Positions 12,290 through 38,518 of a stretch of DNA of 55,166 bases are shown one piece after another. The position numbers and the translations under genes were made by a program. This DNA is from a virus (taxonomy: Duplodnaviria; Caudoviricetes): the IMG/VR virus record IMGVR_UViG_3300032954_000016, positions 1 to 55,166 of that record; one strand, given 5' to 3'. Below the pieces are notes generated by a model. The model was not told where the DNA came from. It saw only the letters and a program-made list of their open reading frames with translations, and searched no databases. Numbering within the stretch: position 1 is the stretch's first letter; each line of letters starts with the position of its first letter.

Positions 12290-14448
12290 AACCCGGCTGG
12301 GATTAAGATTGGAGAAACGTGATTGGTTGGGAATGGGCTTACAAAAGCACCTGCCATATTTGCGCCATTCAGGTTCGTCAGCCCGGAGCCGTTGCCAGAA
12401 ATGGCATAACCATTTGAGACCGATAAATTCCCGGCGACCGTCACATCGCCGTTGATGGCGGGATAAGCCCACGGTCTGACAGTTGTTCCCGCAAGGTTTG
12501 TCCAGGTTACGGCGTTTCCGTCAGGTCGCGTGGGTTTTATTATTGCCAATGCGGACGCAGCGTTAAGCCCAATGTCCATTGACAGCGGGTTGGTGCAAGT
12601 TGTGGTATCAATCATCAAGTCGTCCTGTGCGATGAACTCGCCCGCAGCTATGGCTGAGGTAGAAGCGACACCATAAACGGTTGTGTTGGCTGAGTTGGTG
12701 ATGCCTTGTTCGTTCACATAAATGGTGCAGCCGCTGTGAACCTTAAATGTGCCCGCCGCCGCGCCTTTCAACCGGATTCCAGCACGGGTTTCGGTAAAGG
12801 TTGTGGTCTGATTGTTTGTGCCAACCATCCTTGTGCCCCAAAGGTCGTAAACGTATCCCGAAGATGGGACAGGAACAAAGGCATCCTCACCAAAATAAGC
12901 CGTGCAATCTCGAATGACAACTGACCCGCCGGGCTTACTCGCCGCGCCCATTCGCCAGCAGGATACGTTGTCCCAAGCTATGACGTCTTGAAAATACTCG
13001 TTCGTTCCGGCGCTGGCAGGATACGTGCCGAAAATGTTAGCAGAGTTCCCTTGGTTTGGATAATATACGCCAATCCAAGTGCCACCAATTATGGAGCAAC
13101 CGTCGTCGAGTTCGATTTGAGAAGCTGGTCCGCTGCTGACATTGTTTGATAATGAATAGATTACGCCAGGGTTGGCTATGATAGTTACGTGTGGAGGAAA
13201 ATATAATGCACCTGCAGTTGTGGTATTCGTTGGGTCGCACGGATCAACTGGATATGTTCCTGCGTTCACAATAATTGTGTCGCCGGGCTGTGTTATTTGG
13301 TTGGTAAAAATCTGACAGAGCAACCCGAACGGCTTGGTTTGGTTGCCGCGAACACCATTTAGAGTTCCAGATGGGTCAACCCAAATCGTCTGCGCGTTTG
13401 TAAACGTGAGTGTCCCGGCTGTGGTGGCGTAGGTGGCTGTGGATGCGTTGCCGGACGTGTTGTTGGTCAGGCTCCCGGTGACGTTCGTGGCCGTGCCGTT
13501 GAGCGGGCCGGCGAGCTGGCTGCTGGTTACCGCGCCGCCCATGAACGTGCCGCCGACGAAGCTGCCGGCGGTCACCGGGCCGCTGGCGGTCACACTGCTC
13601 ACACTGACGCCGTTGCCGCTCAGTGTGCCCGACCCGACGTTTATGTTGAGGTTGCCCGGGGCGCTCGGCCCGATGCTGTTGGCGGTGATGGCGTTGCCCG
13701 CCATCGTGTTGAACGCGAGCCCGTTCATCAGCACGTTGCTCCCGCCGCCGATGGCGAACGCGCCCGAGACGGTCGGGGCCAGCGACGAGACCGGGGCCGG
13801 CAGCAGGCCGTAGGTGGACTGCGCCCACGTCCCGACGAAGGTGCTCGCCAGGTTGTAGTGCTCCTGGCCGTTGGCCGCCAGGATGCGCCAGGCGTTGTTG
13901 TTGCTGACGACGAAGCTCTGCGCCACGTAGTTGGTGAACGCCAGCGGCGCGGTCTGCGTGTACCAGCCGAGCACGGAGTCGCCGCTGGAGCTCTGGAGCA
14001 GGAACTGGTTGCTGACGACCTGGATGGCCATGCCGCCGAGCGTCCACGACCCGAGCACGACCTGGTTGCTGGCGGTCAGCGTCCCGTTGTTGGTCTCCGG
14101 CCCGTTGTAGACATTGGTCCCGGTATAGGTGTTGAGGCCGTTGGTGGTCGCCACCTGCCCGGCGTGCAGCGTCGCGGCGGTGTCGGGCGGGATAAAGATG
14201 TTGGTGCCGGAGCTGTTGGTCGGGGCGGCGTTGAGGATGCCCTGCTGCTGCGGCGTCAGGGCGTTGGTGTTGCCGCCGGCCGACCCGAGGAGCGGGTTGG
14301 CCTGCGCGATCCCGTTGGCGTTGGTCGGCCCCGTTATGACCATGTTGGTGTCCACCATTATGGCGTAGAGCGGGCTGGAGGCGGCCCGGCAGACGGCCGC
14401 GGCGCCGAGCAGCGCGAGGGCGGCGGCGAGTAGTGTCTTGGTCTTCAT
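12241..14448 (-). CDS. Tail fibre/spike-like protein with signal peptide and C-terminal pectin-lyase-like beta-helix
   Basis: MKTKTLLAAALALLGAAAVCRA signal; IWVDPSG..GNQTKPF..PGDTIIVNAGTY beta-helix cap; GNGSGLTNLN fibre motif; ATGA-coupled start. Confidence 0.7.
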   Translation of the reverse strand: MKTKTLLAAALALLGAAAVCRAASSPLYAIMVDTNMVITGPTNANGIAQANPLLGSAGGNTNALTPQQQGILNAAPTNSSGTNIFIPPDTAATLHAGQVATTNGLNTYTGTNVYNGPETNNGTLTASNQVVLGSWTLGGMAIQVVSNQFLLQSSSGDSVLGWYTQTAPLAFTNYVAQSFVVSNNNAWRILAANGQEHYNLASTFVGTWAQSTYGLLPAPVSSLAPTVSGAFAIGGGSNVLMNGLAFNTMAGNAITANSIGPSAPGNLNINVGSGTLSGNGVSVSSVTASGPVTAGSFVGGTFMGGAVTSSQLAGPLNGTATNVTGSLTNNTSGNASTATYATTAGTLTFTNAQTIWVDPSGTLNGVRGNQTKPFGLLCQIFTNQITQPGDTIIVNAGTYPVDPCDPTNTTTAGALYFPPHVTIIANPGVIYSLSNNVSSGPASQIELDDGCSIIGGTWIGVYYPNQGNSANIFGTYPASAGTNEYFQDVIAWDNVSCWRMGAASKPGGSVVIRDCTAYFGEDAFVPVPSSGYVYDLWGTRMVGTNNQTTTFTETRAGIRLKGAAAGTFKVHSGCTIYVNEQGITNSANTTVYGVASTSAIAAGEFIAQDDLMIDTTTCTNPLSMDIGLNAASALAIIKPTRPDGNAVTWTNLAGTTVRPWAYPAINGDVTVAGNLSVSNGYAISGNGSGLTNLNGANMAGAFVSPFPTNHVSPILIPAGLWGTTNVFAQLVYTNQ

Positions 14449-15086
14449 GGCGATGTGCTCCCGTCCGGGTTCGGGCAGTAGCCGCCCCCGGCGTTGGTTA
14501 GGGCCCAGCGGCGGTACTTGCCGTCCGGGCAAAGGTACGACTGGTAGCCGAGCACGCTCGGCGAGGCCAGCGGGTTGGTGACCGGTATCCCGGTGTCGAA
14601 CAGCGACACCTGGAAGAAGGCCAGCGTGACGTACTTGGCCGTCGAGTCGTTGGTCACGCCGTAGATGCAGCACCAGAACTGGTTGCTGCCGGCGACGCTC
14701 AGCGTGTTCCAGACCGAGGCCGGCACGGCGAGGTTGACCTGCTGCTGGCTGCCGTTGGCCCAGTTGGCCGCGGTGAGCGCCGGGCTGCCGCCGCCCGGGG
14801 CCGTTATGTTGGCGTTGAGCACCGTCTGGCTCCAGTAGGTCGTGCCCTCGTGCGGCGTGCCGCTGGCCTGGAGCGCGACGACGATGGACGCGAGGTTGGT
14901 CGGGTCGATGATCGTGCCGTCGGCGAGCGTCCCGACGCTGAACACCATCTGCCACAGCAGGTCCGCGCCGGTCGCCAGCATGATGGTGGCGCCGGTCGTC
15001 GCGTCCTGCGGCGCGGTCCCGGTGAGCGCCTTGGTCACGTCGAACGCCGTCCGAATCGTCTGCGCTGTCCTTTGCGGGTTGGCCAT
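14445..15086 (-). CDS. Putative baseplate/tail protein
   Basis: Beta-rich ORF in tail operon preceding fibre genes. Confidence 0.55.
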   Translation of the reverse strand: MANPQRTAQTIRTAFDVTKALTGTAPQDATTGATIMLATGADLLWQMVFSVGTLADGTIIDPTNLASIVVALQASGTPHEGTTYWSQTVLNANITAPGGGSPALTAANWANGSQQQVNLAVPASVWNTLSVAGSNQFWCCIYGVTNDSTAKYVTLAFFQVSLFDTGIPVTNPLASPSVLGYQSYLCPDGKYRRWALTNAGGGYCPNPDGSTSP

Positions 15087-15089
15087 AGG

Positions 15090-15542
15090 TCAAGGGGATG
15101 TCGTGGTCACGGCCTGCGTCTTGAAGGTGAACGAGTGCACCACCCGGGCGCCGGCCACGTCGGCGTCGTAGGACTCCAGGCTGCCGTAGGGGTAGTACTC
15201 GGTCTCGTCGTCCTGCACCACCTGCAGGTGGACCTTGGCCCCGGCGAAGGTCGACTGCATGAGGCGCGTGCTCTTGACGGCCGCCGCCAGGGCCGACCCG
15301 CCGCCGGACGCGGAGTAGCTGGCCTCGAACCGCCACGAGAGCGTCACCGCGGCGTTGGCCTGCGGCTGCACCGTCTGCGACGGGGCGCCGAAGCCGGGCG
15401 CCGAGTAGTTGAGCATCCGCAGGGACACCTTGTACTCGGGCATCAGGTCCGGCACGCCGAGCAGCGCGCCCGCGGCCACGTCGAACAGCGTGGACCACTG
15501 CGCCTGCCCCGCGATTTTGTAGAGCACCTTCATGGCCGTCAC
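15090..15542 (-). CDS. Putative tail protein
   Basis: Coupled to tail tube gene; position. Confidence 0.55.
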   Translation of the reverse strand: MTAMKVLYKIAGQAQWSTLFDVAAGALLGVPDLMPEYKVSLRMLNYSAPGFGAPSQTVQPQANAAVTLSWRFEASYSASGGGSALAAAVKSTRLMQSTFAGAKVHLQVVQDDETEYYPYGSLESYDADVAGARVVHSFTFKTQAVTTTSP

Positions 15543-29510: not shown

Positions 29511-30923
29511 TCACGTGACCCTCTCCACCTTGAACCGCTCGCCGGCCGAGAACCGCTCGGCGCCGCCGCCCGCCGACCGCAGCTCGCCCAATCCGGAGAA
29601 CGCGCCGGTGCCGGCATGGAGGTGGTCGAACAGGTAGCGCAGCGCGTCCATGCTGTGGTCGTTCTCCTTCTTGGGCGCGTCCTTGGCCGCCTTGTCGTTC
29701 CACACATAGGACTCGAACTCATTGACATGGTCCACGCAGGACGGGTCGGTCGAGTAGCGCGCCCTGCCGTCGCCGGCCACCTTGAGAGCGTTGCGCACCA
29801 GGTCGCAGCCGTCCAGCACCCGCCCCTTGGCGCCGATCGCGTAGACGCCGGCGTTGTTCAGGTCGGCGATGAGGCCGGCCGCCGCCTCGTCCACGACCGC
29901 GACCTCGCACCTCGTCTCGGCCGGCGGCAGCACGGTGACACCCTCGCCGTCGGGCGGCAAGGCGGCGTAACCGGCCGGGTTCTGGAACCAAAGCCGGGCG
30001 CGAGCGACCACGTCGGCCTGGAGCACGCCGCGCCGGAAGAAGCACCGGAAGCAGTGCAGGCGGCCGTCCCCGTCGGCACCGACCAGCAGGACCACCGCCG
30101 GGTTGGTGTAGCCCTCGTCCAACGCCAGGAACCAGCGCCGCATCTCCTTGTGGTCGCGGACCCGGACGTGCGGGCCGCCGGGCGTCGAGTCGAAGTTGTC
30201 GTACACGGCGCCCTCGGCCGTGGCCCACTGGCCCTCCAGCAGCCTCTTGCGGCGCACGCCGGTCAGGGTGGACTCCAGCAGCCCGATGCGCCGCCGGCCC
30301 TCGGCGGTGATGTTCCCGGCGTCGTCGTAAAGCGCCGGGTTGTCCTTGTGGGTCGACAGCAGCCGCGTCAGCGAGGCCCGGCTCCGAATCCAGTGGCTCG
30401 CGCCGGCCGGGTTGCAGTCGCCGAACACCTGCGGCCACGCCACCACCGCGCCGCGGCCGGTCACGCGGCCGGCGACCATCTCCCACTCGGCCTCGGTGAG
30501 CTGCTCGGCCTGAACCATGTGCGCGAAGTCCCACTCGCTGGAGAGCAGCTTGTCGGCCTTGTCCAGCCCGGCGCACACCAGCTCCGACCCATTCGGGAAC
30601 ACCCACTTCTCGGTGAACTTCTCGCCGCCGTACCGCTTGATGGGCAGGCCGGCGGTGATGGTGTTGAAGGTCCGGGCGCACGAGTCGTTGATGGAGTTGA
30701 ACAGCTTGCGCACCATGATGCCGTGCGCCTTGGGGCGCCTGGCGTCAGAGCAGAGCAGGAAGTCCTTGACGCATCCGGCCCACGTTTTGGAGGTGTCCGA
30801 CGGGCCGCAGAGGATGGCCTCGTGGTCGTGGCAGGTCAGGAGCTGGAGCGAGCCGCCGCGGAACTTGGGGAGCTCCACCGTGACGGTGCGCGCCCGCTTC
30901 GGCTTGGCGGTCAGCTTCGTCAC
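29511..30923 (-). CDS. terL: Terminase large subunit (PBSX-like)
   Basis: GPSDTSKT Walker A variant, GDCNP coupling motif, LEGQW..AEGAVY, LDEGYTNP and DHSMDALRY nuclease motifs; GTG start coupled to terS. Confidence 0.92.
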   Translation of the reverse strand: MTKLTAKPKRARTVTVELPKFRGGSLQLLTCHDHEAILCGPSDTSKTWAGCVKDFLLCSDARRPKAHGIMVRKLFNSINDSCARTFNTITAGLPIKRYGGEKFTEKWVFPNGSELVCAGLDKADKLLSSEWDFAHMVQAEQLTEAEWEMVAGRVTGRGAVVAWPQVFGDCNPAGASHWIRSRASLTRLLSTHKDNPALYDDAGNITAEGRRRIGLLESTLTGVRRKRLLEGQWATAEGAVYDNFDSTPGGPHVRVRDHKEMRRWFLALDEGYTNPAVVLLVGADGDGRLHCFRCFFRRGVLQADVVARARLWFQNPAGYAALPPDGEGVTVLPPAETRCEVAVVDEAAAGLIADLNNAGVYAIGAKGRVLDGCDLVRNALKVAGDGRARYSTDPSCVDHVNEFESYVWNDKAAKDAPKKENDHSMDALRYLFDHLHAGTGAFSGLGELRSAGGGAERFSAGERFKVERVT

Positions 30924-31462
30924 TTGGCCGGCGCCGGGCCGGTCACGGCCTCGGGGTCGACGCTGGACTTGACCACCACCATCAGCGGGCCGCCGCCCTC
31001 GCCGACCAGCTCCTGCCGCTCGCGCCACTCGTCCGGCTGCCGGTTCTTGAGCCAGAAGATGCACGCCGTGGTGTCCGGCGGGTAGTGCTTGACGATGTCG
31101 GTCTTGATGATGCGACCCTCGTACGACTTGATGTCCACGTCGGGATGGCTGTACCCGGTGGCGCGCTGGTAGAGCGACTTGATGACGGCCTCGTCCGCCT
31201 CCCGTTTTCCGAGCTTTAAGGCTTTGCCAACTTCGGGGTGGCGGTGGCGAAGATTGAACACAGCGATGCCGCTTATCCCGAACGCCTCGCCTATCTGCGC
31301 ATCGGTCGCGCCGAGCCTCGCCAATACCTTGGCGATCCGCAGCCGGTCCAGCTTCACCGGTTTGCGCCCGCCGCCTTCGCCCTGGCGGCCGCGCTTAACC
31401 TTGCCGGTGCGCTTGGAGACGGTGCTCGGCTTGCGGGGTTTTCGGCGGCGGGTCGCGCTCAT
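30920..31462 (-). CDS. terS: Terminase small subunit
   Basis: HTH + SLYQRATGY...KHYPPDTTACIFWLKNR signature; directly upstream of TerL. Confidence 0.9.
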   Translation of the reverse strand: MSATRRRKPRKPSTVSKRTGKVKRGRQGEGGGRKPVKLDRLRIAKVLARLGATDAQIGEAFGISGIAVFNLRHRHPEVGKALKLGKREADEAVIKSLYQRATGYSHPDVDIKSYEGRIIKTDIVKHYPPDTTACIFWLKNRQPDEWRERQELVGEGGGPLMVVVKSSVDPEAVTGPAPAK

Positions 31463-31470
31463 CTGACGGG

Positions 31471-31499
31471 GGTATAGCCGGTCGCCGGTTGAATGTCAA
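31471..31499 (-). promoter_or_regulatory. Promoter TTGACA-17-TATACC upstream of terS (near-leaderless)
   Basis: Perfect -35; -10 ends 8 nt before ATG. Confidence 0.6.
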
Positions 31500-32002
31500 C
31501 GCTTTTCCGGCGACGTCGCCGAACCGGCCGCTGCAGCGGACGCCGAGGCGCCGCTGAGCTTGTTGTTCGGCGGATACAGTTCCACCGGCTCCACACCCTC
31601 GCGCAGAGGCTTCGCCCGCTCGAACACGCACTGAATGTCAGACTCCGCCAGTATGCGCCCGACTTCCATTTTGACCGCGCAGTATCCGAAGCGGTGGAGC
31701 GTCGCGTATTCTGTTGGCGTGAACCAGCGGCGGAGTTGTTCCAGCGTGCGGCAGCCGCAGCCGAGATTCATGCCGACGATAGAGAGGCGCAGCACGTTTC
31801 CAAATTGCATCGGCCACGGGACGAGAGCGGCGTATTCTTCCTCCGGTTTGTCCTCGACCCACCGTTGCGAGAACCCTGGTTTCCACGGGCCTCGACCCGC
31901 GGCGTCTTGCACTCGATACACAATCGCCGAACAAGGCGCTGGAGCGAATGAGTGCCCCGCCACGCTGTTTGGCAATTCGGGAGTCTGGGATGGGGCACTC
32001 AT
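31496..32002 (-). CDS. Cassette 1 hypothetical protein
   Basis: Starts inside attC2 and reads through attC1; VYRVQDAAGRGPW motif. Confidence 0.75.
   Translation of the reverse strand: MSAPSQTPELPNSVAGHSFAPAPCSAIVYRVQDAAGRGPWKPGFSQRWVEDKPEEEYAALVPWPMQFGNVLRLSIVGMNLGCGCRTLEQLRRWFTPTEYATLHRFGYCAVKMEVGRILAESDIQCVFERAKPLREGVEPVELYPPNNKLSGASASAAAAGSATSPEKR
31518..31571 (+). repeat. attC-like site 1 (54 bp, terminal/backbone site)
   Basis: GCCGAAC cggcc GCTGCAGCGG..CCGCTGAGC ttgtt GTTCGGC. Confidence 0.85.
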
Positions 32003-32023
32003 CGCTCAGCTTGGTCGTTAGGC
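31926..32023 (+). repeat. attC-like site 2
   Basis: GCCGAAC aaggc GCTGGAGCG..CGCTCAGC ttggtc GTTAGGC. Confidence 0.9.
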
Positions 32024-32241
32024 TACAAGGCATCCTCGCCACCGGGCAGCATGTCCGATTCGATGGTTGGGAAGTTGAGTTTGTCCAGGACGCGATTCAC
32101 GTCCTCCTTTTTTCCGCCGGTCAGTTCGCGGATGATTTTGAAGCATTCATCGAGTGCTTCTTGGGCGTCTCCGAGGTTTTCGATTCCTTCCATTCGGAAT
32201 CGGCCATCCTCGCCGACGATATGATTTAGTGATCCAGCCAT
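32023..32241 (-). CDS. Cassette 2 hypothetical protein
   Basis: ORF fills the interval between attC2 and attC3. Confidence 0.7.
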   Translation of the reverse strand: MAGSLNHIVGEDGRFRMEGIENLGDAQEALDECFKIIRELTGGKKEDVNRVLDKLNFPTIESDMLPGGEDAL

Positions 32242-32249
32242 AAGTTGTA

Positions 32250-32339
32250 GCCTAACCCGGCGCTGGAGAGAACGCCGGGATTGCGTTTCAGTGTTATTCG
32301 ACGCCGCTCTCCCCGGCGTCTCTCAGCTTTGCGTTAGAC
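32250..32339 (+). repeat. attC-like site 3
   Basis: GCCTAAC ccggc GCTGGAGAG..CTCTCAGC tttgc GTTAGAC. Confidence 0.9.
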
Positions 32340-32558
32340 AGCTTTGGGAATCTCAGCTTGTTCCAATTTGTAAATGTGTTTTTGAAGCTCGTAGGTCACA
32401 TCAATTCCTACGCCTTGGGTTTTAACTGCCGGTGCTGTATGGAGAACGCACATAAAGTTGTCCATGACTTCGACCTTCGCGGCTAGTACTTCGTTCTGGT
32501 GGCGCAGAGCACGTATCTCGTTCTGCGCTTCCTTGAGCGTTTCAATCAGTTCGTTCAT
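32334..32558 (-). CDS. Cassette 3 coiled-coil protein
   Basis: Stop TAA lies in attC3 core. Confidence 0.7.
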   Translation of the reverse strand: MNELIETLKEAQNEIRALRHQNEVLAAKVEVMDNFMCVLHTAPAVKTQGVGIDVTYELQKHIYKLEQAEIPKAV

Positions 32559-32562
32559 AGCT

Positions 32563-32654
32563 GTCTAACCAATCAGTGCAGCGAATGGCGCGGAGTCGCT
32601 GCGGGTTCAATTCGGTTGGTCAGCGATGCGCCATCGCTGACTTCTGCGTTAGGA
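32563..32654 (+). repeat. attC-like site 4
   Basis: GTCTAAC caatc AGTGCAGCG..CGCTGACT tctgc GTTAGGA. Confidence 0.9.
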
Positions 32655-32669
32655 CCACCAGTCATCGTC

Positions 32670-32999
32670 CTAGTCGCCATGCTCCGATACAGGGCCTCCA
32701 TCATCCTGCGTCTCGACCTTGTCCGCGATCTGTGGCAGGTCGAAGCGGCTCACCGGTTCATTGCGATAGCGTTGGAGCATTCCGAGCGCGATTTCCTCCG
32801 TCACTGGGTTGATGCTGTAGATTGCTCCCGGCCCATAGAAGCGGGTATATGCCTTGTTCTCGGCCTGGGCCGGCACGTCCACGCGCAGGAACGCACCGCC
32901 GGCGAGTGTGGCCTCACTCACCTTGCCCACGATCTTCTGGTGGCCGAACAGTTCGACCAGTGCCCATTCATTGAAGCTGCTTCCGTTGTCTTTGCTCAT
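32670..32999 (-). CDS. Cassette 4 conserved phage-type protein
   Basis: EWALVELFGHQKIVGKVSE...FLRVDVP...GAIYSINP motif. Confidence 0.8.
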   Translation of the reverse strand: MSKDNGSSFNEWALVELFGHQKIVGKVSEATLAGGAFLRVDVPAQAENKAYTRFYGPGAIYSINPVTEEIALGMLQRYRNEPVSRFDLPQIADKVETQDDGGPVSEHGD

Positions 33000-33003
33000 A
33001 AGG

Positions 33004-33127
33004 TCCTAACAAGCGGATGCACACGAACAGCCGCCCCGCTTGGCAGTTCGGGCGCATCAGGTTTTACTATGGTTTCGGGGCTTTCAAAGTCTCGGTCGGC
33101 GGCTGTCGGTGATCCGCAGCGTTAAGC
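33004..33127 (+). repeat. attC-like site 5
   Basis: TCCTAAC aagcg GATGCAC..GTGATC cgcagc GTTAAGC. Confidence 0.85.
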
Positions 33128-33421
33128 GGCTAAATATGATGCCACTTCCTTTCCTTCGGTTGTCAGTTCCCATGCCCAGCCATATCGCTTCGTGGCCAGC
33201 CCTTTATTTTGTAGGGCGTAAAAACTTTGCACGCTAGCGGGTTTATGGTCATCCCAAGCTTGGCATTGGGGGTAGTTGGTGGTGTGAGGCAGTCCCATCA
33301 TTTTGGCATCTTTTAGCCATCGGATAGCAGCCACCTGTCCAGCCGTTAGCCGCTTAACCACTCCATTCAGCGAACCGCGAGTGGCACTTTCGGTTTGTTC
33401 GGTAACGTATTTTACGCTCAT
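33122..33421 (-). CDS. Cassette 5 protein (winged-helix-like)
   Basis: Starts inside attC6; stop in attC5 core; ALQNKGL...WELTTEGK. Confidence 0.7.
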   Translation of the reverse strand: MSVKYVTEQTESATRGSLNGVVKRLTAGQVAAIRWLKDAKMMGLPHTTNYPQCQAWDDHKPASVQSFYALQNKGLATKRYGWAWELTTEGKEVASYLAA

Positions 33422-33459
33422 AGTTTTGTTATTCGCGGTCGCTGATGTCGGCGTTAGAA
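33352..33459 (+). repeat. attC-like site 6
   Basis: GCTTAAC cactc CATTCAGCG..CGCTGATG tcggc GTTAGAA. Confidence 0.88.
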
Positions 33460-33852
33460 CATTGAGTCATCGTCGTCATCGTCCAGGTCTGGCTCTTGCC
33501 AATCGTCCTCGTAGTTGTAGCGGCGACGATTGAAGTGCGCCCGGTCTTCGATGGCTTTCACGAGCGCCTTTTCTTCCGGCGTGCGTTCGCCTTCCGGTTT
33601 TTCGAGCACGTCGCGATGGCGATAGCGGATTCTTTCGAGTTTCGATTTGTCGTTGAGCGCGAGTTCGGCGTTCTCCTTCGCCACCTTGTATTGCTCGACT
33701 GCCTTGTCCGCGAGTCGCGCTGCTGTCTTGCGGAGTTCATCTACGGCTTCGGGTGTTGTCGCCGAGCTTGAGGACAGACACACCTCGAAGTGGCAGTAGT
33801 CATGTGAGCGCATCACTTTCACGCTTCCGATTTGGATGTCAGGAATTTGCAT
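33454..33852 (-). CDS. Cassette 6 hypothetical protein with acidic tail
   Basis: SVKVMRSHDYCHFEV motif; stop in attC6 core. Confidence 0.75.
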   Translation of the reverse strand: MQIPDIQIGSVKVMRSHDYCHFEVCLSSSSATTPEAVDELRKTAARLADKAVEQYKVAKENAELALNDKSKLERIRYRHRDVLEKPEGERTPEEKALVKAIEDRAHFNRRRYNYEDDWQEPDLDDDDDDSMF

Positions 33853-33858
33853 ACGATG

Positions 33859-33983
33859 TTCTAACAAATCGGTGCAGACCAACAGCCGCCGCCCTCGGCA
33901 TTGGCTGCACCATTGGTTGTTTGATTGGCGGTTTGCATTTCAAAGTTCACTTCCGGCGGCTGTGGCTGACCTCATCGTTAGGT
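33859..33983 (+). repeat. attC-like site 7
   Basis: TTCTAAC aaatc GGTGCAG..CTGACC tcatc GTTAGGT. Confidence 0.88.
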
Positions 33984-33985
33984 GC

Positions 33986-34138
33986 TTAAGGCTCCGAGCA
34001 TACGGTTTTCAATGCATCCCAAGCCGTAGTGCATCCTGGGATGTATTCCTGATTCCATAGCAGGAATATCCACAAAATCATTCCCGGCATCCAAAGTGGG
34101 AAGGCGGCTATAAACAAAACGAGTTTTATCATTTTCAT
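33986..34138 (-). CDS. Cassette 7 small membrane protein (50 aa)
   Basis: MKMIKLVLFIAAFPLWMPGMILWIFLLW; ATGA-coupled. Confidence 0.55.
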   Translation of the reverse strand: MKMIKLVLFIAAFPLWMPGMILWIFLLWNQEYIPGCTTAWDALKTVCSEP

Positions 34139-34380
34139 CTTGGTCCTTCGGTTGCGATTACTTCAGTCAAACACCACCACGCGAGCGGTTCTTCATCAGC
34201 GGCGTCGTGAGGTTTTTCACCCCAGGATTTCTTTTTACCCATAGCGACACGCGCCACATCCGCCGCCCACAAATAGCGTTCGGTCGAGCACCTAACAAAT
34301 CGCTGGACCGAATGGCTATTACGCCGGTCAGTTCCAACGCTGTCTTTGCGCTCAATCGTTTCTTGTTGCATCGTGCTCAT
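34135..34380 (-). CDS. Cassette 7 hypothetical protein
   Basis: Starts inside attC8. Confidence 0.6.
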   Translation of the reverse strand: MSTMQQETIERKDSVGTDRRNSHSVQRFVRCSTERYLWAADVARVAMGKKKSWGEKPHDAADEEPLAWWCLTEVIATEGPR

Positions 34381-34416
34381 TTTACGCACCCGCCATCGGT
34401 CAGTTTTCCGTTAGCT
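34290..34416 (+). repeat. attC-like site 8
   Basis: ACCTAAC aaatc GCTGGACCG..CGGTCAGT tttcc GTTAGCT. Confidence 0.88.
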
Positions 34417-34638
34417 GGCTTTGAGGCGTAGCTTACATTCATGGCACTTGAGAGCGTCTTGCATTGGTGTGACCCACTCGCCGCCGCCATCGTCTCCGCA
34501 TAGCGCGATGCCGTCCTTTACCGCATGGACTACTCGCCCCGCACGCAGGAATGTTGACGGGAGTAGCCAGCTAACAACGCGCTTCAGCGAACGGCCTTTG
34601 GCCGTTCTGCTTCGCGCTCGCCGCAATTTGGTTGTCAT
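34411..34638 (-). CDS. Cassette 8 small zinc-binding protein
   Basis: VVHAV..ALCG...CHEC; RBS and ATG inside attC9; stop in attC8 core. Confidence 0.7.
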   Translation of the reverse strand: MTTKLRRARSRTAKGRSLKRVVSWLLPSTFLRAGRVVHAVKDGIALCGDDGGGEWVTPMQDALKCHECKLRLKAS

Positions 34639-34689
34639 GGTTGCATTCCTTTCTCGTGCTCAGGCCGTCGCTGAGCTCGGTCGTTAGCC
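34569..34689 (+). repeat. attC-like site 9
   Basis: AGCTAAC aacgc GCTTCAGCG..CGCTGAGC tcggtc GTTAGCC. Confidence 0.9.
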
Positions 34690-35066
34690 GCGCCTCGCTC
34701 GCTGGCCCTCGCGGGGCCAGCGTCGGCGGCTTCGATGATTTGCACGATCCTTCGCCTACAATGTTTGTTTCCGTTAAATATGAATTTCGCACTTTCGAGC
34801 GCCATCGGGCTTGTAATATCTCTCCAATCCCAAGGAGCATCACCGAACATTTCGGCCCCGACTTGCACCACGAATGCCGCCGAATCGCTTTTCGGCGCGG
34901 CTAACGGCGAAGCTGCCAGCGCCTTGTTGCCGCTCGGCGCGGCTAACAAGTCGCTGGAGGCGGACATCGCCTGCGGCGACCCTTCAGGGAGCAAGCAACC
35001 ACATGAACCGCAGTAGTGCTGCTCCAACCTTGACGTTTCAAATCCGCATTGATTACATATTTTCAT
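34635..35066 (-). CDS. Cassette 9 protein with N-terminal zinc ribbon
   Basis: CNQCG..YCGSCG encoded within attC10; stop overlaps next ATG in attC9. Confidence 0.65.
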   Translation of the reverse strand: MKICNQCGFETSRLEQHYCGSCGCLLPEGSPQAMSASSDLLAAPSGNKALAASPLAAPKSDSAAFVVQVGAEMFGDAPWDWRDITSPMALESAKFIFNGNKHCRRRIVQIIEAADAGPARASERGAANDRAQRRPEHEKGMQP

Positions 35067-35107
35067 TGCTTGCTCCCTTCAGTTGCCGCTCAGCTTCGCC
35101 GTTAGCC
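34941..35107 (+). repeat. attC-like site 10 (long, 167 bp)
   Basis: GGCTAAC aagtc GCTGGAGGCGG..GGGAGCAAGCAA/TTGCTTGCTCCC..CCGCTCAGC ttcgcc GTTAGCC. Confidence 0.8.
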
Positions 35108-35241
35108 GCCTTGCGTTTGCGTTTCAGGGCGACTGTTGCTTTCTTCCAGTTTTCGCGGGCGGCGCGGCGCTTGGCCTCCGAGGTTGCCTTGCCACCGAGC
35201 CGTCCGAGAGTTTGCGCGGCCTTATTGACATGACCACTCAT
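35053..35241 (-). CDS. Cassette 10 small basic putative DNA-binding protein
   Basis: AAQTLGRLGGKATSEAKRRAAREN motif typical of small phage regulators. Confidence 0.7.
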   Translation of the reverse strand: MSGHVNKAAQTLGRLGGKATSEAKRRAARENWKKATVALKRKRKAANGEAERQLKGASNENM

Positions 35242-35425
35242 AGTCGGAGTCTTGTTTCTCGCCGCTCGCCAGCGCCTCGGCGATTTCGTGCGCGTCTTGG
35301 TCGGCGGCCACTATCATCCGGCTGCCATCGCCGCGGCGAATCGTTGTCTGGCCACCGCGCTCGCTCACCACATACTCGCTGTCATCCGTGTAGTATCCGT
35401 TTCCGCTTACTGTTACTTTTTTCAT
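35222..35425 (-). CDS. Cassette 10 hypothetical protein
   Basis: ATG downstream of cassette-internal promoter. Confidence 0.65.
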   Translation of the reverse strand: MKKVTVSGNGYYTDDSEYVVSERGGQTTIRRGDGSRMIVAADQDAHEIAEALASGEKQDSDYEWSCQ

Positions 35426-35474
35426 TTTCGTTTTTCGGCTCGGCTTACTGGGCCTCGCTCATCTTTCTGCGCTC

Positions 35475-35503
35475 AATATACCAAGCGGTTAGTATATCGT
35501 CAA
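35475..35503 (-). promoter_or_regulatory. Cassette-internal promoter TTGACG-17-TATATT with ATATAC/GTATAT inverted repeat
   Basis: Hexamers, spacer and palindrome seen directly; A-tracts upstream. Confidence 0.8.
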
Positions 35504-35561
35504 CATTTATTTTCACTTTTTTTGACCCTGTTTTATTGGGCTTTTTGATGATTTTGACGGC

Positions 35562-35694
35562 GGCTAACCCGGCGCTGCACAGAACTGGAGCTACGCTCCT
35601 CCAGTTGCGGCAGCGCCGGGTGCATCAATGCCAGTTTTGTAGTGGGACGCGAAATCACGATTTGCCGCTCCAGTCTGTGAGCTTGTCGTTAAGC
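35562..35694 (+). repeat. attC-like site 11
   Basis: GGCTAAC ccggc GCTGCACAG..CTGTGAGC ttgtc GTTAAGC. Confidence 0.88.
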
Positions 35695-35997
35695 GATGCG
35701 TTCTAGTTCGAGCACCTTTTTTACAGTTGGTCGCCACCGCTTTTTAGACTTTGGTTTCGTCCACTCATGGTCATCCCCGTAACGCTCGAAATCGGCCTTT
35801 GAGATTTCGCCAAATGCCAGCACTTGATCTTCGCAGGCTGCATGAAGGAGTATGTCATCGCCGCCGCCCACGTCCTGACAGACGCCGATTACACCTATGT
35901 CGCAAATGATTTCGTAAAACTTCGGACGGCATCGCTTAACAACTCCATGCAGGCGACGTGGAGAACAGCTTCGGGTTTGCGTTGGTTTCGATTTCAT
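35689..35997 (-). CDS. Cassette 11 hypothetical protein
   Basis: Starts inside attC12; stop in attC11 core. Confidence 0.7.
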   Translation of the reverse strand: MKSKPTQTRSCSPRRLHGVVKRCRPKFYEIICDIGVIGVCQDVGGGDDILLHAACEDQVLAFGEISKADFERYGDDHEWTKPKSKKRWRPTVKKVLELERIA

Positions 35998-36054
35998 ATT
36001 TACAGTTTTGGTTGTGCCGAGTCAGGTGACACGCGCCTGATGTCGGCGTTCGGC
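35934..36054 (+). repeat. attC-like site 12
   Basis: GCTTAAC aactc CATGCAGGCG..CGCCTGATG tcggc GTTCGGC. Confidence 0.88.
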
Positions 36055-36257
36055 AACAGGTGCATTTCGTGCCGCCCAAAGATGTCCACGAACCACGCTT
36101 CACGGTGGCCGAATGGTCCGTTTGGTCCGGTGCAGTCGAGCGCCCTGCCACGCTCTGCCATCCTTTCCTCTGTTGTCAGTGTTGGCTTGTTGTTTGGCCA
36201 GCGTTGCCGAACCAATCGGTCCAGCGAACCCGGCGATTGCGTCTCAGTTGTATTCAT
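36000..36257 (-). CDS. Cassette 12 hypothetical protein
   Basis: MNTTETQSPGSLDRLVR starts inside attC13, ATGA-coupled. Confidence 0.6.
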   Translation of the reverse strand: MNTTETQSPGSLDRLVRQRWPNNKPTLTTEERMAERGRALDCTGPNGPFGHREAWFVDIFGRHEMHLLPNADIRRVSPDSAQPKL

Positions 36258-36296
36258 GGCGTTTTGGTCGCCGGGTCGCTGACCTCGGCGTTCGGC
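36206..36296 (+). repeat. attC-like site 13
   Basis: GCCGAAC caatc GGTCCAGCG..CGCTGACC tcggc GTTCGGC. Confidence 0.9.
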
Positions 36297-36847
36297 TTCT
36301 GGAACACGATCCAATGTGATTTGAAGTGCTTCCCGTAGCGGCTGCCGTAGAGCGGCTTTTCGGGAGTTAGCGCGAGGATTTCTTTCACGCTCACCTCGTC
36401 CTCGTTCCACTTGAAAACCAGCGTGCCATTCGGCCGCAGGACGCGGAAGCATTCAGCGAATCCTTTGGCGATCATTTCGCGCCAGTTGCCCCGGAGCACT
36501 CCATACTTTTTTAGTATCCAGCTCGTGTCGCCGTTCCGCTGGATGTGTGGCGGGTCGAAGATGACGTGCCAAAAGTGATTGTCTGGGAATGGCAGCGCCG
36601 TAAAGTCGGCCACGATGTCAGGATTGACCACGATTTCGCGCTCACCGTTTTTTACCGAGCAGTCAGCGGCCAGATGAGTTTCGCGGCGGATGTCCACGAA
36701 CAGCGCACGCGGGTCTTTGCGGTCGAACCAGAACATCCGGCTTCCACAAGCGGCGTCCAGCACAGAAGCCGAACAAGGCGCTGCACCCGCAATGACTGCC
36801 GCGGCGGGCGGTTCAGGCGAGGCGATAGATTTTGACGCGGCAGTCAT
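36254..36847 (-). CDS. Cassette 13 SAM-dependent (probable DNA) methyltransferase
   Basis: VLDAACGSRMFWF SAM motif, ADFTALPF, FDPPH catalytic-type motif, ECFRVL. Confidence 0.85.
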   Translation of the reverse strand: MTAASKSIASPEPPAAAVIAGAAPCSASVLDAACGSRMFWFDRKDPRALFVDIRRETHLAADCSVKNGEREIVVNPDIVADFTALPFPDNHFWHVIFDPPHIQRNGDTSWILKKYGVLRGNWREMIAKGFAECFRVLRPNGTLVFKWNEDEVSVKEILALTPEKPLYGSRYGKHFKSHWIVFQKPNAEVSDPATKTP

Positions 36848-36868
36848 GGGGTGAGCTTGTCGTTCGGC
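36768..36868 (+). repeat. attC-like site 14
   Basis: GCCGAAC aaggc GCTGCACCC..GGGTGAGC ttgtc GTTCGGC. Confidence 0.88.
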
Positions 36869-37059
36869 GCCGTCACTGGTGGTTGAGGTTGACCAGCGAG
36901 AAGAACTCGGCCCGGGTGGCCGGCGTCCCACGACACCGCCCCGTCGCGGCTCGCGTGCCTTCCGGGGTGCCCGGCTGCGAGCCCGCAGCGGACGGGCGCA
37001 GCGCCGGCCGGCACCGGCGCCAAACTCCCGCAGCGATTGATGATTCGTTCGGCTCTCAC
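36844..37059 (-). CDS. Backbone hypothetical protein reading into attC14
   Basis: GTG start; ends APNDKLTP with stop overlapping cassette 13 ATG. Confidence 0.5.
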   Translation of the reverse strand: MRAERIINRCGSLAPVPAGAAPVRCGLAAGHPGRHASRDGAVSWDAGHPGRVLLAGQPQPPVTAPNDKLTP

Positions 37060-37340
37060 GCGAACAGCTCCGGCTGCGGCTTGTGCCAGTTGGCCAGCCT
37101 CTCGAACGACAGCACGGTCTCGCCCTTGCGCCGGCCGCCCCTCCTGCGCACGTGCAGCCCGTCGCGGCGCAGCTCGAACACGTGCAGCTTGAGGACCGGC
37201 TCGTGCGCCGTCGGGCTGACCGCCGGCGAGCCGACGTCGACCGCCTTGACGACCCGGCCGCGCACCCGGTCGGCCGGCCTGCGCCACTGGTCGCGGGGCT
37301 TGATGGTGGCGAACGGCTTGCGCTTGGCGGTCTTGTTCAT
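37056..37340 (-). CDS. Basic hypothetical protein
   Basis: ATGA-coupled to methyltransferase gene. Confidence 0.6.
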   Translation of the reverse strand: MNKTAKRKPFATIKPRDQWRRPADRVRGRVVKAVDVGSPAVSPTAHEPVLKLHVFELRRDGLHVRRRGGRRKGETVLSFERLANWHKPQPELFA

Positions 37341-38518
37341 GGTTTGGGCGATGTACAGTCGGCTTTGTGCTGGCCAAGGCCAGCATATCGGTCAATCCAC
37401 TTTTGATCGAGCTGTCCTTTAGCTGATGGTTTCGGGGGCGGCGCGGCGGCTGCCGGTGTCGGTTTGGGCGGCTTTGGAGCCTTGGACCGGGCCGTTGGGG
37501 CGGCGACCAGCACCGGCGCGTCCTGCGCCAACGTAGGCGTTTTGGCCTTTAAAATACAGTCCCACTCCGGCTGGAGCGGCTTCAGACAATGCGGGCTGAA
37601 CCAGATCCGCTCCCGGGCTGAGTTTTCGCTGTTTCCTGCGGCGGCAGCGTATCCGCCGCTCGCTTTCCATGCAACACAATCCCACTCTTGAGGCATTTGA
37701 TGCTCTCCTTCGTACCCGCAGAGAGCTATTCGCAACAGCGGATTAGTTCCGTTTTCAACCGCCCACTGTTTGACTTTGTCTGAAACTCCGCGAGAGAAGT
37801 CTCCATACACATCATCGTGTCCGTCGGCATCGTAGGGCGGGTCCAAGAGAATGCCTGTCAGCCCTTGACCGAACGTCGCAGCCTTCGTAAGTACACGCGA
37901 CCAATCGCCGCAGCATACTTTGGTATGGCGCATCCGTTCAGCAATCGCCCGGAACCAAGCAACTATATTTTCAGTGTTACTTTCCGAGCCACCCCCTGAC
38001 CACCCGTCAGGTGCGGAACTTGCCGAATCAGCCACCCCCTGACCACCCGTCAGGTGCGGAACTTTCCGAGCCACCCCCTGACCACCCGTCAGGTGCGGTG
38101 CTGAATTTTGTTCCGTCGGATGACAAAAGTTGTCACCAATCCAACATGAGACCCCCCACATCCACCAGCCGGCTATTTTCGTGTCGTAGTAGTCGGGGTC
38201 GTTCTCCATTCGCTTGCGGAACTCCAACCGCTTGTGAAGCCACCGATGCCTGGCGTGTAAATCCGCCTCGTTAATTGGCCAGTCAGCGTGGAGTGCAGTT
38301 TCCTCCGGGGCGAACTTCATCGCACGCCAAGTATTAGCCACATAGCAATCAATATCATTCACAATCTCATTTTTGGGCTTGTGTGGTCGCCGTAGCAGCA
38401 CCGCCAACGAGCCAGCGAACGGTTCGACATAATTACCAACGTCGCCGAGCCGGGACCATATAAGGTCTGCGGCTCGTGACTTTCCCCCAAACCAGACAAA
38501 TGGCGTTTTCAGTTCCAT
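37337..38518 (-). CDS. DNA adenine methyltransferase (D12/Dam class)
   Basis: PFVWFGGKS, YVEPFAGS, NDID, LDPPY motifs. Confidence 0.9.
   Translation of the reverse strand: MELKTPFVWFGGKSRAADLIWSRLGDVGNYVEPFAGSLAVLLRRPHKPKNEIVNDIDCYVANTWRAMKFAPEETALHADWPINEADLHARHRWLHKRLEFRKRMENDPDYYDTKIAGWWMWGVSCWIGDNFCHPTEQNSAPHLTGGQGVARKVPHLTGGQGVADSASSAPDGWSGGGSESNTENIVAWFRAIAERMRHTKVCCGDWSRVLTKAATFGQGLTGILLDPPYDADGHDDVYGDFSRGVSDKVKQWAVENGTNPLLRIALCGYEGEHQMPQEWDCVAWKASGGYAAAAGNSENSARERIWFSPHCLKPLQPEWDCILKAKTPTLAQDAPVLVAAPTARSKAPKPPKPTPAAAAPPPKPSAKGQLDQKWIDRYAGLGQHKADCTSPKP
37988..38098. repeat. Three copies of 29-bp GCCACCCCCTGACCACCCGTCAGGTGCGG inside the MTase gene
   Basis: Copies at 37988, 38031, 38070. 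Confidence 0.9.

What the first reader, a model, noticed from the sequence alone, without database searches (positions are those of the whole stretch)
31565..36774. Offset core complementarity shows each cassette existed as an independent circle
Seen: the R' of site n is the reverse complement of the R'' of site n+1 at all 13 cassettes: GTTCGGCG, GTTAGGCTACAA, GTTAGACAGCT, GTTAGGACC, GTTAAGCGGCTAA, GTTAGAACAT, GTTAGGTGCT, GTTAGCTGGCT, GTTAGCCGCGCC, GTTAGCCGCC, GTTAAGCGATGC, GTTCGGCAAC, GTTCGGCTTCTG (8-13 bp). A site's own two ends mostly diverge within a few bases of AAC/GTT. Known: this is expected from crossover at G|TT when circular cassettes integrate. Inference: the insertions were recent, real site-specific events, not chance hairpins.
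Basis: partly seen in the sequence, partly recalled or inferred. Interest (0 to 1): 0.9.

Follow-up and report, generated by a model that had tools for sequence, protein, structure and literature searches.

The report
Integron cassette array inside a phage
A complete 55-kb phage genome carries 13 integron-type gene cassettes but no integrase of its own, and the cassette genes run backwards relative to the recombination sites compared with bacterial integrons.

Summary
All 13 offset pairings exist (8-13 bp, mean 10.8), against 5.4 for a site's own ends and 4.2 for other pairings; 0 of 100000 permutations reach the observed sum. The 14 sites are true attC hairpins: R box, 5-nt spacer, L box, 2-3 extrahelical bases. 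Circularising each cassette at G|TT gives the best-folding site in 11 of 13 cases.

The window is a complete phage with terminal repeats and no tyrosine recombinase. This is therefore a CALIN, a kind already reported in phages (Qi 2023). The array sits inside one ancestral attC upstream of terS (12 of 13 bp stem).

Extrahelical-base geometry, checked on R100, phage TJE1 and 114 bacterial sites, makes the minus strand the recombined strand, yet the cassette genes are on minus. They are antisense to canonical polarity in 13 of 13 cassettes here, 30 of 31 in seven other viral contigs, and 3 of 28 in bacterial controls. Related phage contigs carry full integrons with an IntI group, a conserved attI and the same inverted gene polarity. 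I found no description of this in print.

The parts
31518..31571 (+). attC s0 (54 bp, GC-rich). Proposed remnant of the phage's own ancestral attC; lies 56 nt upstream of the terS start in the sense direction.
   Evidence: Structural scan with 0 mismatches and 2 bulges; fold. Its R'' pairs 12 of 13 bp with the flank right of s13.
31566..32017 (-). Cassette 1 (body plus attC s1 31926-32023). Minus ORF 32002..31496, 168 aa, runs 70 nt past the cassette boundary.
   Evidence: phrog_1106 E 3.4e-7; codon classifier calls minus; table.
32018..32333 (-). Cassette 2 (attC s2 32250-32339). ORF 32241..32023, 72 aa.
   Evidence: no family hit.
32334..32648 (-). Cassette 3 (attC s3 32563-32654). ORF 32558..32334, 74 aa; its TAA stop is the last 3 nt of the cassette.
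32649..33121 (-). Cassette 4 (attC s4 33004-33127, 3 bulges). ORF 32999..32670, 109 aa.
   Evidence: phrog_29525 E 8e-12. 11 viral loci encode relatives at 47-71% identity, none with a clean (0-mismatch) attC beside the gene; the only 0-mismatch site in these loci lies about 4.9 kb away in L037.
33122..33453 (-). Cassette 5 (attC s5 33352-33459). Longest ORF 33421..33122, 99 aa, starts inside s5; TAA stop at the cassette end.
33454..33977 (-). Cassette 6 (attC s6 33859-33983, 3 bulges). ORF 33852..33454, 132 aa, acidic C-terminus; TAA stop at the cassette end.
33978..34410 (-). Cassette 7 (attC s7 34290-34416). Two ORFs with an ATGA overlap: 34389..34135 (84 aa) and 34138..33986 (50 aa, hydrophobic).
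   Evidence: the classifier call is weak.
34411..34683 (-). Cassette 8 (attC s8 34569-34689). ORF 34638..34411, 75 aa, starts in the s8 loop after AAGGA; TAA stop at the cassette end.
34684..35101 (-). Cassette 9 (attC s9 34941-35107, 167 bp, 3 bulges). ORF 35066..34635, 143 aa, CxxC...CxxC N-terminus, starts in the s9 loop after AGGGAG. Its stop overlaps the start of the cassette 8 ORF (ATGA). A second copy of GGCGCGGCTAAC lies at 34894.
   Evidence: (1 mismatch).
35102..35688 (-). Cassette 10 (attC s10 35562-35694). ORFs 35425..35222 (67 aa) and 35241..35053 (62 aa, basic).
   Evidence: the classifier gives nearly a tie.
35689..36048 (-). Cassette 11 (attC s11 35934-36054). Longest ORF 35997..35689, 102 aa; TAA stop at the cassette end.
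36049..36290 (-). Cassette 12 (attC s12 36206-36296). ORF 36257..36000, 85 aa, starts in the s12 loop.
36291..36862 (-). Cassette 13 (attC s13 36768-36868, 3 bulges). Orphan type II DNA methyltransferase, ORF 36847 (or GTG 36763)..36254. Its stop overlaps the start of the cassette 12 ORF (ATGA).
   Evidence: PADLOC MTase_II 1.3e-64 and oMTase 1.1e-43; Pfam Methyltransf_11; 252 phage records. The same cassette occurs in L011, L027 and L006.
36863..36875 (+). TTCGGCGCCGTC: the 3' half of the ancestral R', now separated from s0 by the 13 cassettes.
   Evidence: 12 of 13 bp complementary to the R'' side of s0; the restored site folds at -26.4 against -21.4 kcal/mol.
30920..31462 (-). Terminase small subunit gene, directly downstream of the array in the sense direction; terL 29511-31064 follows.
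   Evidence: phrog_309 E 1.2e-39; phrog_2.
37337..38518 (-). Backbone D12-class (Dam-like) DNA methyltransferase upstream of the array; small ORF 37056-37340 lies between.
   Evidence: PF02086 E 1.9e-9; phrog_56.

Best explanation
This is an integron cassette array without an integrase (a CALIN): 14 attC sites and 13 cassettes in the intergenic gap upstream of terS of a complete phage with terminal repeats. Shown: the sites have full attC anatomy, and each cassette's two ends are complementary as expected if it was once a circle closed at G|TT. The array is bracketed by the two halves of one older attC, so the cassettes were most likely inserted one after another by attC x attC recombination into a single phage-borne site. 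Inferred: the integrase acts in trans, coming from the host or from a co-resident phage, because a group of integron integrases is found on phage contigs that share a cassette with this array. Shown: the cassettes belong to a pool with inverted gene polarity. The coding strand is the recombined bottom strand. The attC lies 5' of its gene, and the start codon sits in the attC loop or within 15 nt after its inner core. The array reads in the same direction as all flanking phage genes. Inferred: the array is therefore expressed by read-through phage transcription, not by an integron promoter. The cargo gives the phage exchangeable accessory functions. The one recognisable function is an orphan DNA methyltransferase, which by analogy protects phage DNA from restriction.
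For: Site anatomy: all 14 sites fit AAC-spacer-stem with 2-3 single-base bulges on one arm-loop-stem-spacer-GTT, all in one orientation. 13 fit with 0 mismatches and s9 with 1; five shuffles of the window gave 0-3 one-mismatch hits. A stricter model found 10 of 14 sites, nothing else in the window, and 0 hits in 10 shuffles.
Offset pairing and circularisation.
No recombinase in the phage: TIGR02249 gives 0 matches and PF00589 gives 0 matches in a record rated 100% complete with terminal repeats. No attI motif is present.
Phage identity: TerS, TerL, portal, major head, DnaB, topoisomerase and tail fibre.
Foreign origin of the cassettes: GC is 47-62% per cassette (53-56% in 1-kb bins) against about 70% in the flanks.
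Polarity: the published rule is that the bottom strand carries the extrahelical bases on its 3' (L'') arm, at G16 and T23 in attCaadA7 (Nivina 2016, passages). Here the minus strand has them at about 17 and 23.
Polarity controls: the scanner calls attC-aadA1 of R100 and two TJE1 sites on the gene's sense strand. 63 of 66 and 48 of 48 bacterial sites point away from intI.
Genes on minus: MTase, phrog_29525 and phrog_1106 hits, against 0 of 7 plus-strand ORFs with a PHROG hit. The codon classifier calls minus in 13 of 13 bodies; its accuracy on held-out 210-nt pieces was 80 of 120.
Boundaries: L011 shares 36289-36864 (body 69%, s13 about 85% identical) and L027 shares from 36289 at 97%, with unrelated sites at the s12 position.
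Related complete integrons: G002 carries IntI at 353 bits (cut-off 265) and L055/L056 carry IntI at 61% identity to it. attI is joined to the first cassette body in 8 of 9 loci.
Against: No recombination was observed. The single public run that holds parts of the array gave only small contig pieces and no joints.
The minus strand is not the more stable fold: the plus strand folds better in 9 of 14 sites. Published mobile-integron sites favour the bottom strand.
Strict 7-mer cores (RYYYAAC, GTTRRRY) are met in only 5 of 14 sites each; only AAC and GTT are invariant.
In L006 the MTase body (88-97% identical) is joined to an upstream attC that diverges from s13 after about 20 nt. Simple co-transfer of body and attC does not explain this.
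Five ORFs run 37-70 nt past their cassette boundary, so as mobile units they would lose their own stop codon.
For cassette 13 the homology begins at residue 28, so a start inside the attC is not proven.
The longest-ORF test was noisy: minus wins in only 9 of the 14 intervals scored, 8 of the 13 cassette bodies.
The host and the source of the integrase are unknown.
Confidence: 0.85

Rival explanations
1. The array is a fragment of an ordinary bacterial chromosomal integron, picked up by the phage through illegitimate recombination or imprecise excision, not built in the phage cassette by cassette.
For: Qi 2023 (section 3.4 and abstract) describes fragments of chromosomal integrons in Vibrio phages and proposes off-target and illegitimate recombination. 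The cassettes have much lower GC than the phage.
Against: The array is bracketed by two halves of one attC (12 of 13 bp stem); a random fragment would not give this. Gene polarity is the reverse of bacterial arrays: 13 of 13 antisense here against 3 of 28 and 7 of 29 in bacterial and outgroup loci. The cargo genes have homologues in phages: 252 phage records for the MTase, 11 viral loci for cassette 4, and PHROG families for cassettes 1 and 4. The phage shows no integration machinery: the PF00589 search found no tyrosine recombinase; serine recombinases and transposases were not searched for.
Confidence: 0.07
2. The polarity is canonical after all. The integrases that act on these sites would cleave the strand that carries the bulges on its 5' arm, so that each gene is followed by its own attC as in ordinary cassettes.
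For: Read in the sense direction the array looks ordinary: GTTRRRY, a short leader, ATG, the ORF, and a stop at or in RYYYAAC. In L006 the site downstream of the MTase resembles s12 (score 36, above the 95th percentile of 24.5), while the upstream site differs from s13 beyond its first 20 nt. The plus strand folds better in 9 of 14 sites.
Against: In complete integrons of this type the element next to attI is a cassette body, with its attC on the far side. The body's inverted partner (10-14 bp) ends in AAC directly against a conserved attI in 8 of 9 loci. This fits only the polarity given by the bulges. attC orientation relative to intI is the canonical one in 13 of 13 sites in metagenome loci of this IntI group, and in all sites of the integron arrays next to intI in G002 and L055. 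L011 keeps s13 with the MTase (score 56, beyond the window maximum of 43) but not s12 (score 13). L027 loses s12 exactly at G|TT.
Confidence: 0.05
3. The sites are not recombination sites but a family of intergenic hairpins, such as terminators, REP-like repeats or RNA regulators, that merely resemble attC.
For: No integrase is present in the phage. The hairpins lie in 5' leaders and some hold start codons. Weinberg 2017 (passage) describes an RNA-like motif (DUF1874) that recurs in consecutive intergenic regions and might or might not be an attC.
Against: Offset complementarity has no explanation under this reading. The bulge geometry copies attC-aadA7. The same site type sits next to bona fide IntI genes with a conserved attI. 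No Rfam family matches at E up to 1. Sequence is poorly conserved while structure is kept (mean column identity 41%).
Confidence: 0.02

Closest known systems
CALINs (clusters of attC sites lacking an integrase) in phage genomes; Qi et al. 2023, Front Microbiol, PMC9892861 (abstract, section 3.4 and passages read)
   Same: attC arrays without intI inside phage genomes. DNA methyltransferases are among the cargo (five reported there). In phage TJE1 the scanner finds attC sites at about 1.0-1.5 kb, upstream of terS (12820-13347) in the same gene direction. Five of six phage attC sites were shown there to recombine with IntI1.
   Different: In TJE1 my scan puts the attC top strand on the gene's sense strand, which is canonical. 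Here it is antisense in 13 of 13 cassettes. That paper required at least two attC sites per CALIN; this array has 14. Its supplementary tables listing all 17 CALINs could not be opened, so larger or inverted examples there cannot be excluded.
Canonical bacterial integrons (class 1 and sedentary chromosomal integrons); Cury 2016 PMC4889954 and Nivina 2016 PMC5027507 (passages read)
   Same: attC anatomy (R box, unpaired spacer, L box, 2-3 extrahelical bases, variable loop). Crossover at G|TT. Each cassette's ends are complementary. attC top strands point away from intI in the related complete phage integrons.
   Different: There is no intI, attI or Pc in this phage. The genes lie on the bottom strand, so the attC precedes its gene instead of following it. 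[quoted passage not shown]
Inverted integron-integrase group (Treponema and others); Cury 2016 and Wu 2013 PMC3607928 (passages read)
   Same: In both, intI and the cassette genes are transcribed in the same direction.
   Different: [quoted passage not shown] In the phage-type integrons found here intI is opposite to the attC top strands, as in ordinary integrons, and only the cassette genes are flipped. The genes lie upstream of intI and read towards attI and intI.

Membership tests
Integron attC recombination site | Imperfect inverted repeat with conserved AAC ... GTT triplets in R''/R' cores (consensus RYYYAAC / GTTRRRY) | tested here: met
   AAC and GTT are present in 14 of 14 sites. The strict 7-mer consensus is met in only 5 of 14 sites for each core; GTTCGGC and GTTAGCC variants make up the rest.
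Integron attC recombination site | Folded single strand with R box, unpaired central spacer, L box, and 2-3 extrahelical bases all on one arm | tested here: met
   14 of 14 sites fit: 13 with 0 mismatches and 1 with 1 mismatch; 10 have 2 bulges and 4 have 3. The positions match attC-aadA1 of R100 found by the same scan and the published G16/T23.
Integron cassette array | R' of one site complementary to R'' of the next (each cassette's ends close one attC) | tested here: met
   13 of 13 cassettes; permutation 0 of 100000. The circularised site is the best fold in 11 of 13.
Integron cassette array | The same cassette occurs elsewhere with other neighbours, with boundaries at G|TT | tested here: met
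   MTase cassette: L011 and L027 break at G|TT. L006 is ambiguous because its upstream attC is replaced. This could be tested for 1 of 13 cassettes only. Cassette 4 homologues in other phages have no 0-mismatch attC beside the gene.
Integron cassette array | Recombined by an integron integrase | not testable with these tools
   Support is indirect only: the same site type lies next to IntI genes (353 bits against a cut-off of 265) with a conserved attI in related contigs.
Complete integron | intI (TIGR02249) with attI adjacent to the array | tested here: not met
   0 TIGR02249 and 0 PF00589 matches in the complete phage; no attI motif. Hence this is a CALIN.
Canonical gene cassette | Gene on the attC top strand, followed by its attC | tested here: not met
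   The coding strand is antisense to the attC top strand in 13 of 13 bodies, with homology proof for 3. Controls are sense in 25 of 28 bodies, 22 of 29, and in TJE1 and R100.

The most novel reading that the evidence does not exclude
Phages have an integron lineage of their own. It has its own group of IntI proteins, a conserved attI (cassette...AAC directly followed by AATCATTA..CACA, 21-43 nt before intI), and a private pool of cassettes built the other way round. In this pool the gene lies on the recombined strand and the attC serves as its 5' leader and sometimes holds its start codon. Arrays therefore read with the phage's own transcription, towards intI. Phages without an integrase, such as this one, keep a single attC as a docking site and draw on that pool in trans, trading anti-restriction and other accessory genes between unrelated phages. 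A phage circle with one attC is formally a giant cassette, so such phages might even dock into integrons.
Probability: 0.55. Interest if true: 0.85.

Novelty: new variant of a known kind. Interest (0 to 1): 0.75.

Why it matters
Integrons are regarded as bacterial devices whose cassettes depend on one promoter and one fixed orientation. Here a complete phage holds a 13-cassette array with the opposite gene polarity, and related phage contigs hold whole integrons built the same way. If that stands, there is a second cassette design, adapted to one-directional phage transcription. There is also a route by which unrelated phages exchange small accessory genes, such as orphan methyltransferases that defeat restriction, by site-specific recombination instead of homologous mosaicism. 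It also bears on strand choice. With genes on the bottom strand, the recombinogenic strand is the non-template strand of transcription, which may make such arrays unusually dynamic. The claims are testable with the standard attC x attI conjugation assay. They would also affect how integron finders that assume gene orientation annotate viral data.

Tried and rejected
(1) The longest-ORF-per-strand test for coding strand was too noisy (window: minus wins in 9 of the 14 intervals scored, 8 of the 13 cassette bodies). I replaced it with a codon-usage classifier with controls.
(2) Close relatives of the phage, sought with TerS: only 5 loci at 32-40% identity, none with a clean attC. No empty-site relative was found.
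(3) Rfam: no match at E up to 1 in 31300-37000.
(4) Public reads: one wetland run holds 8% of the sampled words. When laid, it gave 8 small contig pieces (for example 160 nt of cassette 2 and 358 nt of cassette 6) and no joints. This says nothing either way about excision.
(5) A scan of viral contigs with the attI motif (15 fixed bases) was too unspecific: 118 or more hits, mostly chance. Only a few had arrays: L273 and L267 (both on the L055 contig), L306 with 8 sites, L284, L250.
(6) Pfam, PHROGs and PADLOC: 10 of 13 cassettes have no family hit.
Relatives cannot be drawn for a virus record.
(8) The second low-GC island (about 9.5-13.5 kb) has no attC sites; it is a tail-fibre gene region.
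(9) A bottom-strand stability advantage was not found: the plus strand is more stable in 9 of 14 sites. The A/T skew favours purines on minus, but this is confounded by coding.
(10) Literature: five searches found no description of inverted gene polarity in phage arrays or of this IntI/attI group. Subscription journals and supplementary files were not searchable.

Full report
WHAT IS THERE. The window is a whole virus record of 55,166 bp with direct terminal repeats, rated 100% complete. Almost all genes lie on the minus strand. Reading in the sense direction they are: a replication module (DnaB, helicases, initiator, topoisomerase), a D12-class methyltransferase, the region of the finding, then terS, terL, portal, head and tail genes. 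Region 31518-36868 has 53-56% GC against about 70% on both sides.

- Perfect complementary runs between R' of site n and R'' of site n+1 are 8-13 bp (mean 10.8).
- A site's own two ends pair for 3-9 bp (mean 5.4).
- The other 169 pairings have mean 4.2 and maximum 9.
- No random re-pairing in 100000 reached the observed total.

Closing each cassette at G|TT and folding the restored site gives a mean of -30.7 kcal/mol. The site as it stands in the array gives -24.0, and the ends of other cassettes give -23.9. The true partner is the best of 14 in 11 of 13 cassettes and second in the other two.

THE SITES ARE attC SITES. The 14 sites (54-167 bp) align only at their ends (mean column identity 41%) but share one architecture:
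- a 7-bp R box;
- a spacer of about 5 nt, unpaired on both sides;
- an L-box stem interrupted by two (10 sites) or three (4 sites) single-base bulges, all on the same arm;
- a variable loop.

I wrote a structural scanner for this pattern. It finds all 14 sites, 13 with no mismatch, all in the plus orientation. At one mismatch it also gives six stray hits in the window (five elsewhere and one sub-hit inside s6), against 0-3 hits in shuffles. A stricter version found 10 of 14 sites, nothing else, and 0 hits in 10 shuffles. Rfam has no match.

NO INTEGRASE IN THE PHAGE. Neither the integron-integrase model nor the general tyrosine-recombinase model matches anywhere in the phage, and no attI motif is present. 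By the definition of Cury 2016 this is a CALIN. CALINs in phages are in print: Qi 2023 reports 17 of them plus 3 complete integrons, and shows that five of six phage attC sites recombine with IntI1 (abstract and section 3.4).

THE ARRAY SITS INSIDE ONE OLDER SITE.
- The R' of the last site (s13) is followed by TTCGGCGCCGTC. This is complementary in 12 of 13 positions to the sequence ending in the R'' of the first site (s0).
- Joining them improves the s0 fold from -21.4 to -26.4 kcal/mol.
- s0 is short (54 bp) and as GC-rich as the phage.

The simplest reading is that the phage had one attC 56 nt upstream of terS and that all 13 cassettes entered it by attC x attC recombination. A randomly captured piece of a bacterial array would not be bracketed in this way.

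WHICH STRAND, WHICH END. Offset complementarity is symmetric and cannot tell. Nivina 2016 states the rule (passages):
- the bottom strand reads 5'-R'(RYYYAAC)...L''...R''(GTTRRRY)-3';
- its extrahelical bases lie near L'', at G16 and T23 in attCaadA7;
- cleavage is in the AAC of R'.

Here the minus strand has the bulges on its 3' arm at positions about 17 and 23.

Controls for this call:
- The same scanner puts attC-aadA1 of plasmid R100 on the aadA1 sense strand.
- It puts two sites of phage TJE1 on the sense strand of their genes.
- In 80 bacterial loci with IntI, 63 of 66 sites point away from intI.
- In 63 further metagenome loci, 48 of 48 sites point away from intI.

THE GENES ARE THE WRONG WAY ROUND. 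The cassette genes are on the minus strand, the bottom strand.
- Homology shows this for three cassettes. Cassette 13 is a type II or orphan DNA methyltransferase (PADLOC 1.3e-64; 252 phage records). Cassette 4 matches phrog_29525 (8e-12) and has 11 viral homologue loci. Cassette 1 matches phrog_1106.
- None of seven plus-strand ORFs hits a PHROG.
- A codon-usage classifier calls minus in 13 of 13 bodies; it was right on 80 of 120 held-out 210-nt pieces.
- The same classifier gives the canonical answer for bacterial arrays (25 sense, 3 antisense; 22 sense, 7 antisense) and for TJE1.

Relative to ordinary cassettes, each gene here is therefore preceded, not followed, by its own attC.
- In 8 of 13 cassettes the longest ORF starts inside that attC. 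Good Shine-Dalgarno motifs precede the start only in cassettes 8 and 9.
- In the others the start lies 11-15 nt after the inner core.
- For cassette 13 homology begins at residue 28, so the start at GTG 36763 is equally possible.
- Five ORFs end with the TAA that forms the last three bases of the cassette.
- Five ORFs run 37-70 nt into the next site. Two of these end in an ATGA overlap with the next gene's start.

IT IS NOT A ONE-OFF. I searched viral contigs with the methyltransferase and found 22 loci.
- Nine of the 22 have attC sites around the gene, all antisense to it.
- In seven contigs with arrays, 30 of 31 bodies are antisense.
- These phages are otherwise unrelated to the window. Only G002 and G005 share any backbone protein with the window: DnaB at 53% and 29% identity, plus a second protein at 62% in G002.
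- The methyltransferase cassette is nevertheless 97% identical over 106 nt in L027 and 88% over 568 nt in L006.
- In L011 and L027 homology to the window starts at 36289, the G|TT of s12. In L011 it runs to the G of s13's R'. There s13 is about 85% identical while the gene body is only 69%.
- The site at the s12 position is unrelated in both (scores 13 and 15). The baseline among the window's own sites is mean 14.5, 95th percentile 24.5.
- L006 is the exception. Both its flanking sites resemble the window's (scores 29 and 36), and the upstream one diverges from s13 after about 20 nt. I cannot explain that by simple cassette transfer.

COMPLETE INTEGRONS OF THE SAME DESIGN.
- G002 is the 58.6-kb contig of L011. 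It has TerL and major head protein and encodes an integron integrase (353 bits, cut-off 265).
- Its seven attC sites point away from intI, as in any integron, but the cassette genes point towards it.
- Two further viral contigs, L055 and L056, carry an IntI 61% identical to that of G002. They have six sites and cassette genes proven by homology to lie on the intI strand: DNA methyltransferase 3e-71 and an acetyltransferase.
- In metagenome locus L148 an IntI of this group lies directly upstream of terL and head genes.
- In 8 of 9 loci of this group, the inverted partner (10-14 bp) of the first cassette ends in AAC. It is followed at once by AATCATTA..CACA, 21-43 nt before intI (51 nt inside the called intI start in L151).
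- The motif AACAATCATTA (one mismatch allowed) lies beside intI in 11 of 15 loci with IntI at 54% identity or more, two of which are the G002 contig fetched twice. It also lies beside intI in the one locus at 53.5%, and in 0 of 139 loci below 50%.
- In 185,579 species genomes only two small MAG contigs carry an IntI of this group at 57-58% identity; all the rest are at 48% or less.

Because a cassette body, not an attC, abuts attI, the polarity given by the bulges is confirmed independently.

HOW IT MOST LIKELY WORKS.
- Shown: attC anatomy; cassette ends that close on themselves; nesting in one older site; inverted gene polarity; co-orientation with phage genes; sharing of one cassette with other phages at G|TT boundaries.
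- Inferred: an IntI supplied in trans, by the host or by a resident phage integron of the G002 type, inserted the cassettes. Read-through phage transcription expresses them. The methyltransferase protects phage DNA from restriction.
- A possible rationale for the inversion: in one-directional phage genomes intI must read with the other genes, and the platform geometry then turns the attC top strands against transcription. Only cassettes with flipped genes are then expressed. This is speculation.

WHAT IS WEAK.
- No recombination was observed.
- The bottom strand is not the more stable fold.
- Strict core consensus is met in 5 of 14 sites.
- Ten cassettes have no known family.
- The host is unknown. 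TerL is nearest to actinophage terminases at 33% identity or less, a weak hint. It would be notable because Cury 2016 found no complete integrons in Actinobacteria (passage).
- Monophyly of the phage IntIs was not tested.
- Five literature searches found no prior description of the inverted design. Supplementary tables of Qi 2023 and subscription journals were out of reach.

VERDICT. By itself the array is a new member of a known kind, a CALIN in a phage. The inverted cassette design, together with a phage-borne IntI and attI group, makes it a new variant worth bench testing.

Noticed in passing
window 34894-34947: GGCGCGGCTAAC occurs twice, 30 nt apart, at the inner end of cassette 9. The stretch 34898-34914 equals the reverse complement of the outer arm of s9 (35091-35107). 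It may be the scar of a top-strand or inverted recombination event, or of a lost cassette.
   Followed up: partly
window 36254-36257 and 34635-34638: ATGA stop/start overlaps join the ORF of one cassette to the ORF of the next inside an attC loop (cassette 13 to 12, and 9 to 8). The stop of cassette 12 lies 2 nt before the start of cassette 11. This is odd for units thought to move independently and suggests translational coupling across cassette boundaries.
   Followed up: partly
window about 9500-13500: A second low-GC island (51-53% against about 70%) has no attC sites. It covers ORF 9989-12472, which matches a tail fibre family (phrog_4201, 3e-18), and part of ORF 12241-15498. It is probably a swapped host-recognition module.
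   Followed up: partly
L055 2375-3021 (also seen as L267): The 35-kb viral contig with a complete inverted-polarity integron has a second, oppositely oriented pair of attC sites beside a second copy of the attI-like motif. No second intI was detected there.
   Followed up: no
L006 about 6530-6700 (G001): Next to the MTase cassette lies a cassette whose attC resembles s12 (about 75% identical, including the first 9 or so codons in the loop). Its body encodes a different protein with an SGGKDS (PP-loop-like) motif. Related attC leaders thus sit on unrelated genes.
   Followed up: no
L148 24-3372: In this metagenome contig an IntI of the phage group lies directly upstream of terL, a connector (head-tail adaptor)-like protein and the major head gene. 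This is the same position relative to the packaging genes as the array in the window and the CALIN in phage TJE1.
   Followed up: partly
L306 1591-5697: A 5.75-kb viral contig holds eight attC sites in one orientation followed by the attI-like motif at its very end. The classifier of 7 bodies antisense. It is another likely member of the inverted design.
   Followed up: partly
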